A stretch of DNA of 64,000 nt from an uncultured Candidatus Rokubacteria bacterium (GTDB lineage Bacteria; Methylomirabilota; Methylomirabilia; Rokubacteriales; DASRDR01): contig CAWDVE010000016.1 in NCBI GenBank assembly GCA_963805625.1, forward strand, positions 448,001 to 512,000. The letters run 5' to 3'. Positions within the stretch are counted from its first letter, which is position 1. Every line of letters begins with the position of its first letter. Positions 10,333 to 20,018 of the stretch are shown piece by piece. A program made the position numbers and the translations under genes. The notes under the pieces were generated by a model, which saw only the letters and a list, made by a program, of their open reading frames with translations, did no database searches and was not told the DNA's origin.

Positions 10333-10716
10333 ATGGGCCTGATCCCCTCGAGCTTTCTCCCGCCCCGAGCCCTCTGGCCCGAGCGGGTCTACACCCTGCC
10401 CGAGCACGCGAGCTACCCGGCGCGTCTGAACTCGACCGAGGAGTTGATCGACCGTCACGTCGAGGCCGGCGGCGGGGACCGCGTGGCGATCCTCTACGAG
10501 GACCAGCAGATCACTTACCGCCAACTCCAGAGTTCCGTCAGCCGGCTCGGCTCGGCGCTCCGGGCACTGGGGATCGGGGAGGAGGATCGGGTGCTCCTGC
10601 GGGCTCCCTCGATCCCACCGGCGCTCGTTGCCAACTTCGCGGTCATCCGGATCGGCGGCGTGATCGTGCCGACGTCGCCGCGCCGTGTCCTCCGCGACCA
10701 GGCCGGGCGCGCCTGA
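10333..10716 (+). pseudogene. Internally deleted aryl-CoA ligase (benzoate/aminobenzoate-CoA ligase-like)
   Basis: N-terminal AMP-binding residues (YPARLN..DRVAILYEDQQITYRQL..DRVLLR) fused in frame to RRVLRDQA, resembling the extreme C-terminus; core missing. Confidence 0.75.
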
Positions 10717-10730
10717 GCGGGCCTCGGCGC

Positions 10731-11579
10731 GTGGAACGCTTCGCGGGCCGCGTCGTCCTCGTCACCGGCGCCTCGTCCGGCATCGGGACGGCGGTCGCGC
10801 GGGAGTTCGCCCGCCAGGGTGCCGACCTCGTCCTGGCCGCGCGACGTCTCCCTCGGCTCGTGGACCTGGCTGCCGAGGTCCGCGCGACTGGGCGTCGGGC
10901 TCTCGCCGTCTCGTGCGACGTGACGGAGGACGGGGCGGTCGAGCAGGCGGTGCGCCAGGCGCTCGAGGCATTCGGCCAGCTCGACGTCGCAGTGGCCAAT
11001 GCGGGGTTCGGCGTCGTCGGCCCGTTCGAGCGCCTGACGCTCGACGACTACCGCCGGCAGTTCGAGACCAATGTCTTCGGCGTGCTGCGGACGGCATCCG
11101 CCGCGCTGCCCGCGCTGCGGAGCAGCCAGGGCACGCTCGTGATCGTCGGTAGCGTGAGCGGCCACGTCCCGACCGCGGGCGCGTCGGCCTACGCCATGAG
11201 CAAGGCGGCGGTGCACGCGTTCGCCACGTCACTCAGGGGCGAGGTCCTGGCCGCCGGTGTGGGGGTGGTCCTGGTGAGTCCCGGCTTCGTCGAGAGCGAG
11301 TTCCGTAGGGTCGACAACCAGGGGGTACATCATCCCGACGCCCGGGCCGCCGTCCCGCGCTGGCTCGTCGTTCCCGCTGCCCGGGCCGCTCGCGCCATCG
11401 TGCGCGCCACCGCCCGTCGCCGGCGCGAAGTGGTCGTCACGGGGCACGGCAAGGTGATCGTGTGGCTGGCGCGGCACCTGCCCTCGGTCCTGGCGGTTGC
11501 TCTGGAGCGTGGGGTGTACCGATCCCGCGGTGAGCCTACCGGGCCTGGCTCAGTCCGGGGGCCAAGGCCGACCCCCTGA
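10731..11579 (+). CDS. SDR family oxidoreductase
   Basis: TGASSGIG, NAG, YAMSK. Confidence 0.92.
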   Translation: MERFAGRVVLVTGASSGIGTAVAREFARQGADLVLAARRLPRLVDLAAEVRATGRRALAVSCDVTEDGAVEQAVRQALEAFGQLDVAVANAGFGVVGPFERLTLDDYRRQFETNVFGVLRTASAALPALRSSQGTLVIVGSVSGHVPTAGASAYAMSKAAVHAFATSLRGEVLAAGVGVVLVSPGFVESEFRRVDNQGVHHPDARAAVPRWLVVPAARAARAIVRATARRRREVVVTGHGKVIVWLARHLPSVLAVALERGVYRSRGEPTGPGSVRGPRPTP

Positions 11580-11663
11580 CCGATGGTCATGCGGTTCTCA
11601 GTGACAATTTCTGGCACCGACGGGGGCCTTTTCGCTCCTACCGGGCGCGCCTGAACCGTCTCC

Positions 11664-11718
11664 AGTCCGACAATGCGAGGAATGACGGCAGTTTAGTCAA
11701 GGCAATCCCTGTCGGACT
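11664..11718. promoter_or_regulatory. Nested dyad-symmetric putative operator
   Basis: AGTCCGACA (11664-72) / TGTCGGACT (11710-18) and TGAC-N9-GTCA (11683-99), both centred on 11691. Confidence 0.55.
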
Positions 11719-11722
11719 ATCG

Positions 11723-11738
11723 TGGCACTGGCCTTGCT
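11723..11738 (+). promoter_or_regulatory. Sigma54 (-24/-12) promoter
   Basis: TGGCAC-TGGCC-TTGCT matches the TGGCAC-N5-TTGCW consensus. Confidence 0.75.
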
Positions 11739-11751
11739 ATTCCCTCCTACC

Positions 11752-13038
11752 ATGCAACAGTACGAGATTCGATCGAGTGGAGGTCTGGTAAACGGCGTGG
11801 AGGAAGCTCCGCCACCGCCAGTTCCGGAGGCACGCCGCGGCCTGCTCGGCGAGATCCTGATCCGCGAGGGCCTGATCGACGAGGGCCAGCTGTCGACGGC
11901 CCTGATGGTGCAGCGAGAGACCGAGCCCACGACTCCGCTGGGCCAGATCCTGGTGCGCCAGGGCGCGATCACCCAGCGCCAGCTCAACAGCGTTCTCGAC
12001 CGGTACCGCAAGAAGTACCGGCTGGGCGACATCCTCGTCGAGACCGAGACCATCACCGAGCACCAGCTTCAGATCGCGCTGGATCATCAGAAGAAGACGG
12101 GGCTCCGGCTCGGCGACTCCCTCCTCCAGCTCAACTTCGTGACGGAGGAGGAAGTCAACCAGGCGCTCTGCAAGCAGTTCGGGGTCACGTTCGTCGACCT
12201 GGACCGGCTGGTACTCGACAACAGCCTCGCGCTGGTGATCAACCGCGAGTATGCGGAGCGGCACCGCGTGATCCCGATCTCGAAGACCGATCGGGTGCTG
12301 GTGGTCGCCATGGACGACCCGTCGGACCTGGGCGTCGTGGCCGAGCTGGCGGGCGCCACCGGCTCGCGCGTCAACGTCGTGACGTCGACGCATGCTGCGT
12401 TCCGCCGTGCCTTCGCGCGCACCTATGGGGAGAGCGCCGAGGTCGGCCTCATCCGACGCGCCGAGCAGCTCGGGCGCGAGTACGAGATCCTCCGCGCCGA
12501 GCACGAAGCGAGCAAGGAGAAGTTCGCGGAGCTGCGGCGGGCGCACGAGGCCGTCCTGGCGGACCGCGAGGCGTCGACGCGGACGCTGGCCGAGCAGCGC
12601 ACGCGAAACGAGTGGAACGAGCAGGCCCTGACCGGCCTCCGGGAGGCCCACGCGGCGCTCCGGGCGGAATACGAGTCGACCCGGGCGACGCTCGAGAAGC
12701 TACGTCTCGAGTATGCGGAGAGCACCCGGATGCTCGGGGATCTGCAGGACGCCCACGAGGCGCTGACCACGGAGCAGGCGACGACCGCAGACCAGATGGC
12801 GGAGCGGCAGGCGCGAAACGAGTGGAACCTGCGGGTCCTCGAGGAGCTGCGGGCCGCCCAGCAGACGCTCCGAGCCGGACACGAGAGTCTTCGGAGCGAG
12901 CTCGCGCTCGCCCAGGACCGCGGTGCCGAGGCTGAGGCGCGCCTGGCGGAGCTTCGAGCGTCGCACGAGACACTCCTGACGGATCACGCGACGATCGTGC
13001 GGGAGATCGAGGCGGTCACGGACCGCCTGAAAGGCTGA
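11752..13038 (+). CDS. MshEN (PilB/GspE N-terminal) domain protein with long coiled-coil tail, no ATPase (paralog A)
   Basis: Four (R/L/P)LGxxL motifs, T2SSE_N-like VIP..LVVAMDDPSD subdomain, then heptad repeats; start 11752 or GTG 11797 because GTG 11722 overlaps the sigma54 element. Confidence 0.8.
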   Translation: MQQYEIRSSGGLVNGVEEAPPPPVPEARRGLLGEILIREGLIDEGQLSTALMVQRETEPTTPLGQILVRQGAITQRQLNSVLDRYRKKYRLGDILVETETITEHQLQIALDHQKKTGLRLGDSLLQLNFVTEEEVNQALCKQFGVTFVDLDRLVLDNSLALVINREYAERHRVIPISKTDRVLVVAMDDPSDLGVVAELAGATGSRVNVVTSTHAAFRRAFARTYGESAEVGLIRRAEQLGREYEILRAEHEASKEKFAELRRAHEAVLADREASTRTLAEQRTRNEWNEQALTGLREAHAALRAEYESTRATLEKLRLEYAESTRMLGDLQDAHEALTTEQATTADQMAERQARNEWNLRVLEELRAAQQTLRAGHESLRSELALAQDRGAEAEARLAELRASHETLLTDHATIVREIEAVTDRLKG

Positions 13039-13049
13039 GGAGGCAGGAC

Positions 13050-14408
13050 ATGACGGCGGCGCACCTCAACGGAAGCTACGGCAACGGCCACGAGGCGGTC
13101 GCGCTGCCGCTGCTGGTCCAGCCGCATCGCGTCGCGTCGTCACCTCCCCGAACCCATCTCCTGGGCGAGCTGCTGCTCCGGGAGGGAATGGTCACGGAGG
13201 GACAGCTGACCAGCGCGCTCCGCGCGCAGGAGGCGAGCCTCGACGGCACCCCGGTCGGACAGCTTCTCGTGGAGCAGGGTGCCCTCTCCCCGGCCGATCT
13301 GGAGGCGGTGCTGCGCCGCTACCACAAGAAGTACCGGCTGGGCGACATCCTCGTCGAGACCAACGTGATCAGCGAGACGCAGCTCCAGCTCGGTGTCGAC
13401 CACCACCGACGCACCGGGCTCCGACTCGGCGATGCACTGCTCCAGCTGGGCTTTGTCAACGAGGAGATGCTCAAGCTGGCGCTGTGCACGCAGCTCGATG
13501 TCGTGTTCGTCGACCTCGATCGGTTCTCCATCGACCGCAGCCTCGCGTCGCTGGTCCCGAAGGCGTTCGCGCAGCAGCACCGGGTCCTCCCGGTCGCCCG
13601 GGTCGACGACGTCCTGACGGTGGCCTTGGCGGATCCGACGGACGGCTGGGTCGCGGAGAACCTCGAGGCGATGACTGCTTGCCAGGTGCGGCTGATCATG
13701 TCGACCGACGCCGCGTTCCAGCGGGCCTTCACCCGTGTGTACGGCGAGAACCCCGGAGTCGGTCTCGCCCGGCAGCACGAGCGACTCGAGCAGACTCACG
13801 CGGTTCTCACGCGCGAGTACGAGAAGGCGGCCCGGGCCCTGGGCGAGCTGCGTCAGTCGCACGAGGAGTTCCTCCGGGAGCAGGCCGATCTGCTCCGGAC
13901 GGCCGCCGAGCAGGCTGGCCAGCAGACGGAGCAGGAGCGCCGGCTCGCCGAGCTCCAGGCAGCGAACGCGACGCTTCGCGAGGAGCACGAAGCCCGGGGG
14001 CGGGCGCATGCGGATCTGTCGCGCGCGCAGGCGGAGACACTCGAGAGCCTCACCACGATCCGGCGCGAGCACGGGCGGCTGCTCGGCGAGCACCACGACC
14101 TGGGGCGCCAGCTCGTCGAGGAGCGGGAGCGAGGCGGCGAGCTGGCTCGGCGCCTGGTCGAGCTGGAAGCCGCGCACATCGTGGGTCGGCGGGAGCTCGA
14201 CGAACGCCTGACGGCGCTCACGGCGCTGGACGCGGCCTACGCGGAGACCACTCACGCGCTGGCCGGTCTCCGCGCGGAGCACGAGACCCTGCGAGGCGAG
14301 TACGAGCGGGTCTCCCGCGAGCTTGGCGAGCGGTGCCACGCCGCCGAGGGACGCCAGCAGCTGGCGATCCAGCAGCTCGAGACACTGCTCACGCGCCTCC
14401 GGCAGTGA
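13050..14408 (+). CDS. MshEN domain protein with long coiled-coil tail, no ATPase (paralog B)
   Basis: Same architecture; GAGGAGG/AGGA RBS just after the stop of paralog A. Confidence 0.82.
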   Translation: MTAAHLNGSYGNGHEAVALPLLVQPHRVASSPPRTHLLGELLLREGMVTEGQLTSALRAQEASLDGTPVGQLLVEQGALSPADLEAVLRRYHKKYRLGDILVETNVISETQLQLGVDHHRRTGLRLGDALLQLGFVNEEMLKLALCTQLDVVFVDLDRFSIDRSLASLVPKAFAQQHRVLPVARVDDVLTVALADPTDGWVAENLEAMTACQVRLIMSTDAAFQRAFTRVYGENPGVGLARQHERLEQTHAVLTREYEKAARALGELRQSHEEFLREQADLLRTAAEQAGQQTEQERRLAELQAANATLREEHEARGRAHADLSRAQAETLESLTTIRREHGRLLGEHHDLGRQLVEERERGGELARRLVELEAAHIVGRRELDERLTALTALDAAYAETTHALAGLRAEHETLRGEYERVSRELGERCHAAEGRQQLAIQQLETLLTRLRQ

Positions 14409-19670: not shown

Positions 19671-20018
19671 GTGCAGATCGGCATGATCGGGCTCGGCCGC
19701 AACGGGATCGAGTACGGGCCCATGCAGGCCTATGCCGAGGGCTTCGACATCCTGCTGAACGCGCGGTCGATGGACTTGCCGGAGCAGCCCCGCGACGATC
19801 TCTCGCTCCGCGACATCGCCGAGGTCTGGCGGCGGGGGAGCGTCGTCAGCTCCTGGCTCCTGGACCTCACGGCGGAGGCCCTCGTGGTCCCCGCGGACGT
19901 GCTCTCGGCCTCGCTCTTCGTCCGCTTCCGCTCGCGGCCGGACCACTCCTTCGAGCGGGTCCTGTCCGCGATGCGGCACAAGTTCGGCGGCCACGTCGAG
20001 CGGCCGTCGGGAGGGTAG
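19671..20018 (+). pseudogene. Internally deleted second 6-phosphogluconate dehydrogenase
   Basis: [10 protein letters not shown] joined directly to NGIEYG..WRRGSVV..LTAEAL then VPADVL..KFGGHVE. Confidence 0.85.

What the first reader, a model, noticed from the sequence alone, without database searches (positions are those of the whole stretch)
11752..14408. Tandem ATPase-less double-MshEN + long coiled-coil proteins: candidate c-di-GMP-gated filament/scaffold
Seen: two adjacent paralogs (11-bp gap), each with four MshEN-like 24-residue motifs. The last two start RLG and are separated by a 5-residue linker (KKTGL / RRTGL). A PilB/GspE N-terminal subdomain follows, then roughly 200 aa of continuous heptads. 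No Walker A/B, TM segment or signal peptide, and no pilus/T2SS genes nearby. A 37-bp stretch is identical between them (12009, 13325). Known: tandem RLGxxL..GxxxxxxLxxxLxxQ motifs form the c-di-GMP-binding MshEN domain of MshE/PilB ATPases. Inference: a heterodimeric c-di-GMP-responsive coiled-coil polymer, polar scaffold, or decoy regulator of pilus ATPases. I do not recognise this architecture as described. Caveat: several motif Gly/Arg positions are substituted.
Basis: partly seen in the sequence, partly recalled or inferred. Interest (0 to 1): 0.8.

Follow-up and report, generated by a model that had tools for sequence, protein, structure and literature searches.

The report
Pilus-coregulated c-di-GMP sensor rods
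Two neighbouring genes of an uncultured Rokubacteria-type bacterium encode the signal-sensing head of a pilus motor joined to a long helical rod instead of the motor, share a promoter signature with the pilin gene, and likely pass the c-di-GMP signal to a pilus motor whose own sensing site is predicted to be dead.

Summary
Observation confirmed. Genes A (11752-13038) and B (13050-14408) each encode two MshEN_N bundles, MshEN_C and a ~190-200 aa heptad rod, with no ATPase. The pair is adjacent in 11 of 14 same-genus genomes, under purifying selection. A's second site keeps the c-di-GMP consensus; B's carries conserved L>V and Q>H.

New: a sigma-54 promoter (11723) and an enhancer (11601) precede A in 12 of 12 loci. 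A matrix trained only on four other genera's pilA enhancers ranks this promoter first of 77 in the genome, ahead of two pilin genes. G004, nested in the clade, lacks both pilSR and A/B. PilB carries the motif Gly>Leu change (non-binding in MshE) in 16 of 16 family members read; it is intact in 12 of 12 from two sister families.

Reading: likely PilR-coregulated, trans-acting c-di-GMP receptors for type IVa pili. Binding, partner and sign are untested. A heterodimeric filament is not favoured. The architecture is absent from Wang 2016's table and my searches; this scan earlier noted a reversed coiled-coil/MshEN protein in Hydrogenedentota. New variant of a known kind.

The parts
11577..11589 (.). 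upstream inverted repeat TGACC-N3-GGTCA, possible second activator site (inferred)
   Evidence: sequence; partly conserved in the alignment of 11 upstream regions
11601..11617 (.). enhancer-like site GTGACAATTTCTGGCAC (TGACA-N5-TGTCA type), shared with the pilA promoter; likely PilR site
   Evidence: exact 10-mer occurs 3 times in the genome, here and above pilA among them; ranks 1 of 77
11723..11738 (+). sigma-54 -24/-12 promoter TGGCAC-N5-TTGCT (consensus recalled)
   Evidence: only match in the window, 0.01 expected; present in 12 of 12 A loci
11752..13038 (+). gene A, 428 aa: MshEN_N - MshEN_N - MshEN_C - coiled coil - cap
11842..12006 (+). A first four-helix bundle (motifs 1-2, LLG..Q / PLG..Y), possible second site
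   Evidence: model superposes on MshE 5HTL, rmsd 0.9 A over 56 columns, E 0.064
12019..12177 (+). A canonical MshEN_N (motifs 3-4), predicted c-di-GMP site
   Evidence: best NF053729 match in the genome; residues
12178..12438 (+). A MshEN_C (N1E-like) subdomain, 95% conserved among close orthologues
   Evidence: PF05157
12439..13035 (+). A coiled-coil rod, 27 unbroken heptads, 35/70-residue repeat, C-terminal cap
12009..12045 (+). 37-bp stretch identical to 13325-13361
13039..13049 (+). 11-bp spacer with a GGAGG ribosome-site-like word; operon spacing
   Evidence: gap 4-13 bp in 11 of 12 loci; the twelfth is a late start call
13050..14408 (+). gene B, 452 aa, same architecture
13158..13322 (+). 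B first bundle (motifs 1-2, LLG..Q / PVG..Y)
   Evidence: 47 bits against a cut-off of 38
13335..13493 (+). B second bundle (motifs 3-4) with conserved L21V and Q24H; predicted weakened site
   Evidence: V in 27 of 29 and H in 29 of 29 B-class rows
13497..13748 (+). B MshEN_C subdomain
   Evidence: PF05157
13776..14405 (+). B coiled-coil rod and C-terminal cap
13325..13361 (+). second copy of the 37-bp identical stretch

Best explanation
A and B are ATPase-less proteins made of a PilB-type MshEN head and a coiled-coil rod, encoded behind a sigma-54 promoter and an enhancer-like site that they share with the pilin gene; they are likely switched on with pilA by PilR, are predicted to bind c-di-GMP, and would act in trans on the type IVa pilus motor, whose own c-di-GMP site is predicted to be dead. 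Proposed mechanism: PilR activates the two-gene operon together with pilA (inferred). Each protein forms a parallel homodimer through its rod, about 28 nm long, carrying two heads (inferred). A binds c-di-GMP at motifs 3-4 and perhaps at motifs 1-2; B binds weakly or only at motifs 1-2 (predicted). The loaded head docks by its conserved MshEN_C surface at the motor (PilB or its PilM/PilC socket) and licenses or tunes pilus extension, the job that FimX does elsewhere (inferred; partner and sign untested). Step odds: pilus-linked expression about 0.8, c-di-GMP binding by A about 0.75, direct action on the motor about 0.5.
For: Shown by calls: sigma-54 site and enhancer 122-145 nt apart in 12 of 12 A loci. 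A matrix from only four other-genus pilA enhancers ranks A 1 of 77 (14.1), a second pilin gene 2nd (12.1), pilA 3rd (9.8), next 3.5; column-shuffled matrices put A first in 10 of 500. G004 (95% complete) lacks pilS-pilR and the enhancer in its pil cluster, lacks A/B at a contiguous locus, has one NF053729 match only, and nests inside the A/B clade. PilB motif-1 Gly>Leu in 16 of 16 family-f1 proteins read, intact in 12 of 12 from f2/f5; G11L abolishes binding in MshE (PMC5013675). The genome's three complete secretion ATPases all lack a motif Gly3 while 7 GGDEF and 2 EAL matches exist. A keeps R, L, G, L, L, Q in motif 3 and R, L, G, V/L, L, Q in motif 4 in 30-31 of 31 rows per position; fold matches c-di-GMP-bound 5HTL and 8PDK, TM 0.89-0.91 on the target. 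dN/dS of A's head 0.03-0.14.
Against: No binding, partner or phenotype was measured. No pilus gene lies beside the pair in any of 12 loci. The PilB change and the G004 co-loss are each one evolutionary event, and G004's deletion also removed an acyl-CoA ligase and an SDR gene. PilB is degenerate across the family, but the enhancer is found only at A-type genes: 29 other head-bearing genes scored at most 7.2. The enhancer does not match the PilR hallmarks quoted for P. aeruginosa (PMC6058289), and the genome has 28 GAFTGA-type activators. In T. thermophilus no GSPII domain is needed for PilM binding (PMC6325625), and consensus motifs do not guarantee binding (PilF GSPII-A, PMC12002112).
Confidence: 0.45

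Rival explanations
1. FrzS-like polar scaffold: the rod and its conserved C-terminal cap localise the dimer to a cell pole and the head recruits another pilus regulator when c-di-GMP is bound, without touching the motor directly.
For: FrzS has a sensor-like N-terminal domain and a coiled coil sufficient for polar localisation (PMC11580455). A cap pattern ends 134 of 166 head-plus-rod proteins, also kinase fusions, while rod length varies from about 75 to 590 residues. Same promoter evidence as above.
Against: No homology to FrzS was tested or seen; the cap may only be the end of the coiled coil; A's MshEN_C is far more conserved (0.95) than the rod (0.73), which points to the head as the binding surface.
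Confidence: 0.2
2. Decoy or brake: co-induced with pilin, the dimer occupies PilM/GspL-type docking sites or soaks up c-di-GMP and so limits extension.
For: It keeps the N1 domain that contacts GspL in T2SS ATPases and lacks the motor (PMC11656802); up to four sites per dimer.
Against: PilB here has no predicted c-di-GMP site to protect from a sink; GSPII domains are dispensable for PilM binding in T. thermophilus.
Confidence: 0.15
3. PilR-coregulated c-di-GMP receptor whose target is not the pilus motor, for example pilin glycosylation, surface polysaccharide or adhesion.
For: pilA is followed by glycosyltransferase-like genes; PilR regulons reach beyond pili (PMC6058289); MshEN occurs on many non-pilus proteins (PMC5013675).
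Against: The head's closest relatives are PilB-like ATPases; no polysaccharide gene flanks the pair.
Confidence: 0.12
4. One reading: an A-B heterodimer that polymerises into a c-di-GMP-gated filament.
For: Tandem, operon-like pair in 11 of 14 same-genus genomes; ungapped colinearity; B's cap overhangs by 18 residues; a crescentin cluster appears at a low 0.75 in the Atlas (lead only).
Against: In-register A-B has 16-17 of 54 core mismatches and 4 attractive to 5 repulsive g-e pairs, against 10/4 for AA and 4/0 for BB (crude, and homodimers match by construction); A gains 45 residues in G003 with B unchanged; relatives in other genera are single genes of very different length.
Confidence: 0.07

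Closest known systems
Vibrio cholerae MshE N-terminal domain (MshEN, PDB 5HTL; Wang et al. 2016, PMC5013675)
   Same: Tandem 24-residue motifs with a 5-residue linker plus MshEN_C; model rmsd 1.7 A over 137 columns; A keeps 11 of 12 key residues with one L>V.
   Different: No ATPase; an extra MshEN_N bundle in front; a ~200-residue rod behind. Neither MshEN_N-MshEN nor MshEN-coiled coil is in Supplementary Table 4.
Thermus thermophilus PilF GSPII-B and GSPII-C (PMC11731258)
   Same: Leu at motif position 1 is tolerated and raises affinity; GSPII-C has three motifs with Pro starting motif II, like the PLG of motif 2 here, and binds c-di-GMP.
   Different: PilF is the ATPase itself; motif 2 here ends in Tyr, not Gln.
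Four-motif PilB-like orphan ATPases of sister families (e.g. L061, L062, P0084, P0092)
   Same: Same head with the same 7/4/5 linkers in most rows; about 40-55% identical over the head.
   Different: They carry an ATPase domain; they are themselves uncharacterised; the tree does not fix the direction of change.
FimX/PilZ of Xanthomonas and Pseudomonas (PMC11656802, PMC11580455)
   Same: Works like: a separate c-di-GMP receptor acting on a PilB that does not bind the ligand.
   Different: Unrelated domains (EAL, PilZ); interaction with PilB is shown for them and only inferred here.
Myxococcus xanthus FrzS (PMC11580455)
   Same: Works like: N-terminal sensor-type domain plus long C-terminal coiled coil in pilus control.
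   Different: Pseudo-receiver head, no MshEN; no homology tested.

Membership tests
MshEN c-di-GMP receptor domain | Two 24-residue motifs joined by 5 residues | tested here: met
   Motifs 3-4 in A and B; NF053729 over cut-off
MshEN c-di-GMP receptor domain | Four-helix MshEN_N plus MshEN_C fold | tested here: met
   AF2 model of A against 5HTL/8PDK, TM 0.89-0.91 on the target; first bundle rmsd 0.9 A; B not modelled
MshEN c-di-GMP receptor domain | Ligand-contacting residues R/K/L-L-G..L..L..Q in both motifs (gene A, motifs 3-4) | tested here: met
   One conservative L>V; 30-31 of 31 rows per position otherwise
MshEN c-di-GMP receptor domain | Same residues in gene B and in the first bundles | tested here: inconclusive
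   B motif 3 has L>V and Q>H; motif 2 has P..Y in both genes; comparable MshE changes L29V and Q32A cost 4- and 9-fold
MshEN c-di-GMP receptor domain | Measured c-di-GMP binding | not testable with these tools
   Needs ITC or DRaCALA
PilB/GspE/MshE secretion ATPases | C-terminal ATPase domain with Walker A | tested here: not met
   No PF00437, no Walker A; not a member
PilR/sigma-54 regulon | -24/-12 promoter | tested here: met
PilR/sigma-54 regulon | Upstream site like that of pilA at enhancer distance | tested here: met
PilR/sigma-54 regulon | PilR binding and PilR-dependent transcription | not testable with these tools
   PilR named by position in the pilB-pilT-pilC-kinase-regulator-pilin cluster; one co-loss
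Intermediate-filament-like proteins (crescentin type) | Crescentin family domains or sequence similarity | tested here: not met
   No such Pfam or NCBIfam hit; Atlas 0.75 is below its lead threshold
Intermediate-filament-like proteins (crescentin type) | Polymerisation into filaments | not testable with these tools
   Needs EM

The most novel reading that the evidence does not exclude
In this Rokubacteria family c-di-GMP sensing was handed from the pilus motor to detached copies of the motor's own sensor head: PilB lost its site, and ATPase-less MshEN rods, wired into the PilR regulon, dock on the machine as the c-di-GMP switch. That would be a third route of c-di-GMP control of type IV pili beside MshE-type (in cis) and FimX-type (unrelated effector).
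Probability: 0.35. Interest if true: 0.8.

Novelty: new variant of a known kind. Interest (0 to 1): 0.6.

Why it matters
What the N-terminal MshEN/N1 domain of PilB does to the motor is described as poorly understood (PMC11656802). A natural, conserved, stand-alone version of that domain that is co-regulated with pilin, in a lineage whose PilB has lost the site, separates sensing from the motor and can be tested with purified proteins. It also gives a first candidate c-di-GMP effector and a PilR-type binding motif for an uncultured group; my searches for Rokubacteria with c-di-GMP or type IV pili listed no paper on this topic.

Tried and rejected
Complex prediction (PilM with A head) was not available: the queue was full and nothing was folded, so no partner was tested; AA, BB and AB were not modelled either. 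The VIA-align wide search was busy. Pseudogene or truncation: rejected. Gene neighbourhood as a functional clue: flanks are an SDR, a GNAT acetyltransferase and pentose-phosphate genes; in G019 the ligase and GNAT genes are adjacent, so the site looks like an insertion point. Sigma-70 promoter and terminator scan: none. Rod length changes as multiples of 7: not upheld (A -7, -21, -3, -24, -39, +45; B -3, +7, +8, +56); my notebook's '+49' is wrong and should read +45. Trimer motif: one match in B, none in A, not used. Head tree: only the quick tree finished and the outgroup joins on long branches, so no direction of evolution is claimed from it. RNA-library contigs of relatives from four studies cover A and B; the listed pieces of A begin at 11762 or later, bin 11606-11756 has no depth in any of the four, and one 395-nt contig bridges the A-B spacer: a weak hint only, as contigs show no strand or start and the runs were chosen with these genes. 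G008's head-less A::B fusion lies in an assembly with many broken pil genes and was not used. G006, G007, G010, G011, G012 (68-88% complete) miss some pil hits and cannot test co-occurrence. DUF4388, DUF2949 and FumaraseC_C hits are cross-matches to the motif helices (my reading). Loci L116-L171 (56 of 80, at most 36% identity) were not analysed.
Full report
1. Observation. The two ORFs are real: A 11752-13038 (428 aa) and B 13050-14408 (452 aa), 11 bp apart, 42% identical with no gap over 379 residues. Each has four 24-residue motifs with linkers of 7, 4 and 5 residues, PF05157 behind them, NF053729 over its cut-off, no Walker A and no TM-like stretch. AlphaFold2 on a 65-row alignment gives two four-helix bundles, an alpha/beta subdomain and one helix from 229 to 427 (mean pLDDT 81, pTM 0.35). 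Foldseek matches the second bundle plus subdomain to c-di-GMP-bound MshE 5HTL and PilF GSPII-B 8PDK (rmsd 1.7 A); a separate model of the first bundle matches 5HTL at 0.9 A over 56 columns (E 0.064, small query). The rods have a 3.5-residue period and a 35/70-residue repeat, with many His, Asn and Gln at core positions.

2. Distribution. Relatives are labelled Candidatus Rokubacteria / Methylomirabilota (one short-contig record says Myxococcaceae). At E<=1e-20, 40 of 61 genomes match A: 19 of 20 in the same family (f1) and 19 of 37 in f2 (the f2 total includes two genomes later flagged unpublished, G038 and G055, on whose sequence no claim rests). A and B are adjacent, between an SDR and a GNAT gene, in 11 of 14 same-genus genomes and in 15 of the 24 closest metagenome loci examined (the other 56 of 80 were not analysed). 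dN/dS against the window is 0.03-0.14 for A's head, 0.05-0.44 for B's head and 0.15-0.63 for the rods over 11 loci. The genome has a third, unlinked paralogue C (C10:1680731-1682221). Other f1 genera carry single head-plus-rod genes with tails of about 75-590 residues and Ser/Thr-kinase fusions; f2 and f5 carry the same four-motif head on orphan PilB-like ATPases or on short tails. A C-terminal cap pattern ends 134 of 166 head-plus-rod proteins, close orthologues included. The quick tree separates the ATPase clade from the A and B clades but is unrooted in practice; that the rod form is derived rests on its narrower range (inference).

3. Ligand sites. Against the MshE consensus (PMC5013675), A's motifs 3-4 keep R, L, G, L, L, Q with one L>V, in 30-31 of 31 A-class rows per position (V or L at that one place); B's motif 3 has L>V in 27 of 29 and Q>H in 29 of 29. 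In MshE, L29V costs 4-fold, Q32A 9-fold and G11L abolishes binding. The first bundle starts LLG and PLG and ends Q and Y; Leu at position 1 raises affinity in PilF GSPII-B, and GSPII-C with Pro at motif II binds (PMC11731258), so it may be a second site. The turn Gly10 is what is substituted; Gly3 is intact in all eight motifs. Caveat: PilF GSPII-A does not bind even with the consensus restored (PMC12002112). The genome has 7 GGDEF, 2 EAL and 1 PilZ matches.

4. The link to pili (new). Aligning 11 upstream regions showed a conserved TGGCAC-N5-TTGCT at 11723-11738, the sigma-54 consensus (recalled), and a conserved GTGACAATTT about 120 nt above it. The promoter pattern occurs once in the window against 0.01 expected; rpoN is present. 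The exact 10-mer occurs 3 times in 7.27 Mb (0.84 expected): here, 150 nt above the sigma-54 site of pilA, and at one place with no such site. pilA lies in a pilB-pilT-pilC-kinase-NtrC regulator-pilin cluster (the names pilS and pilR are mine, by position). In 13 of 13 f1 spacers behind that regulator there is a TGACA box and a sigma-54 site, palindromic TGACA-N5-TGTCA in the four other genera; the strict patterns found neither in 8 loci of f2/f3/f5. A matrix built only from the four other-genus sites ranks, among 77 sigma-54-like promoters of this genome, A first (14.1), a second pilin gene second (12.1), pilA third (9.8), the next 3.5; two matrices from same-genus sites put pilA first and A second; column-shuffled matrices put A first in 10 of 500. 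All 12 A loci have both elements 122-145 nt apart, as do 13 of 16 further loci (two too short upstream, one from another genus without them). None of 29 other head-bearing genes, C included, scores above 7.2. G004 (95% complete) has pilC followed directly by pilA with the enhancer gone, and MFS followed directly by GNAT, without ligase, SDR, A and B, on an 889-kb contig; its only NF053729 match is PilB; it is sister to G011, which has A and B (bootstrap 100), so this is a loss. Against: it is one event and removed two more genes; the motif differs from the PilR hallmarks quoted for P. aeruginosa; 28 genes with a GAFTGA-type loop could supply another activator.

5. The motor's own site. The genome's PilB, a second PilB-like ATPase and GspE each lack a motif Gly3. 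Of 29 PilB orthologue loci read (30 returned, one unpublished left out), 16 of 16 in f1 have Leu at motif-1 Gly3, 12 of 12 in f2/f5 have both motifs intact, and the one f3 protein is intermediate. The loss thus coincides with the family in which head-plus-rod genes abound. It is a single stem event, and it is wider than the PilR-type promoter, which is confined to A-type genes (a weak trace above the G017 relative L059).

6. Oligomer. Crude heptad rules give AA 10 attractive and 4 repulsive g-e pairs, BB 4 and 0, in-register AB 4 and 5 with 16-17 of 54 core mismatches, and no better parallel offset; homodimers match by construction. G003's A has a 45-residue duplication with B unchanged. I therefore prefer homodimers, and see no positive evidence for filaments. 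No complex could be modelled.

7. Mechanism. Shown: anatomy, conservation, promoter and enhancer, co-loss, PilB change. Inferred: PilR co-activation with pilA; c-di-GMP binding; homodimer; docking through MshEN_C (0.95 conserved in A against 0.73 for the rod) on PilB or its PilM/PilC socket; a positive or tuning effect on extension. N1 domains contact GspL in T2SS structures and are thought to contact PilM (PMC11656802), but are dispensable for PilM binding in T. thermophilus (PMC6325625). Confidence 0.45; rivals: polar scaffold 0.2, decoy 0.15, non-motor target 0.12, filament 0.07.

8. Known and new. The head belongs to the MshEN family by motif and fold; the proteins are not PilB/GspE ATPases. 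They would work like FimX (separate c-di-GMP input to PilB) and are built like FrzS (sensor plus rod; PMC11580455), without homology to either being shown. The architecture is not in Wang 2016 Supplementary Table 4, and nine searches of the open-access library listed no paper on it; subscription papers and unread supplements may hold it. Three other look-ups of earlier findings were empty.

9. Papers seen. PMC5013675: main text parts 1-3 of 7, supplement file 1 parts 3-4 of 5, term search of both files. PMC12002112: abstract, Conclusions, passages. PMC11731258, PMC11656802, PMC12943098, PMC6325625, PMC6058289, PMC11580455: passages only. All others: search listings only.

10. Verdict. Real, conserved, a new variant of a known kind, with an unexpected and well-controlled regulatory tie to type IVa pili and an untested mechanism. 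Interest 0.6.

Noticed in passing
window 12009-12045 and 13325-13361; L032; P0022; P0044: The identical stretch has 0 differences between A and B in the window, L031, L032 and L033 (L032 shares a derived codon in both copies) against 2-5 in seven others and 18 in L041: likely local gene conversion. P0022 (B to A) and P0044 (A to B) are chimeras crossing over there, on short contigs, so possibly assembly artefacts.
   Followed up: partly
window 10333-10716 and 19671-20018: A 127-aa remnant of an acyl-CoA-ligase-like gene (552 aa in several relatives; short in several others) and a 115-aa remnant of a gnd-like gene (about 327 aa in relatives).
   Followed up: no
G000 C19:552024-553424 (L173): MshEN plus degenerate ATPase domain without a Walker A match, between a receiver gene and two pilT-like genes; both motifs lack the final Gln.
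   Followed up: no
L061, L062, L064, L065, L067, L069; P0084-P0098: A subfamily of four-motif PilB-like ATPases with no pilus genes seen beside them in the six loci, in sister families and Thermodesulfobacteriota; f2 also has ATPase-less forms with a conserved 40-residue tail (L066, L068, L070).
   Followed up: partly
G000 C17:445041-445388 (L261): A second, isolated pilin gene with its own sigma-54 site and pilA-type enhancer.
   Followed up: partly
G000 C17:547917 and C13:436491: Strong matches to the pilA enhancer matrix above single receiver-domain genes, with no sigma-54 site found nearby.
   Followed up: no
L260 (G004 pil cluster): pilS-pilR absent, sigma-54 site of pilA kept, enhancer gone, and the pilin frame runs into the next gene: possibly a lineage silencing its pili.
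   Followed up: partly
L043-L050 upstream regions: Paralogue C has its own conserved upstream word CCCGTACAAT-like, resembling a sigma-70 -10 box (recalled), not the sigma-54 site.
   Followed up: no
L053:7655-9454; P0080, P0217, P0265, P0274, P0250: Ser/Thr-kinase-like and histidine-kinase fusions to the same head; the Ser/Thr-kinase ones whose ends were read (L053, P0080, P0265, P0274) finish in the short rod and a cap-like helix.
   Followed up: no
L042:7778-8287 (G008): Head-less A::B fusion frame of 169 aa at the usual site, in an assembly with many frameshifts.
   Followed up: partly
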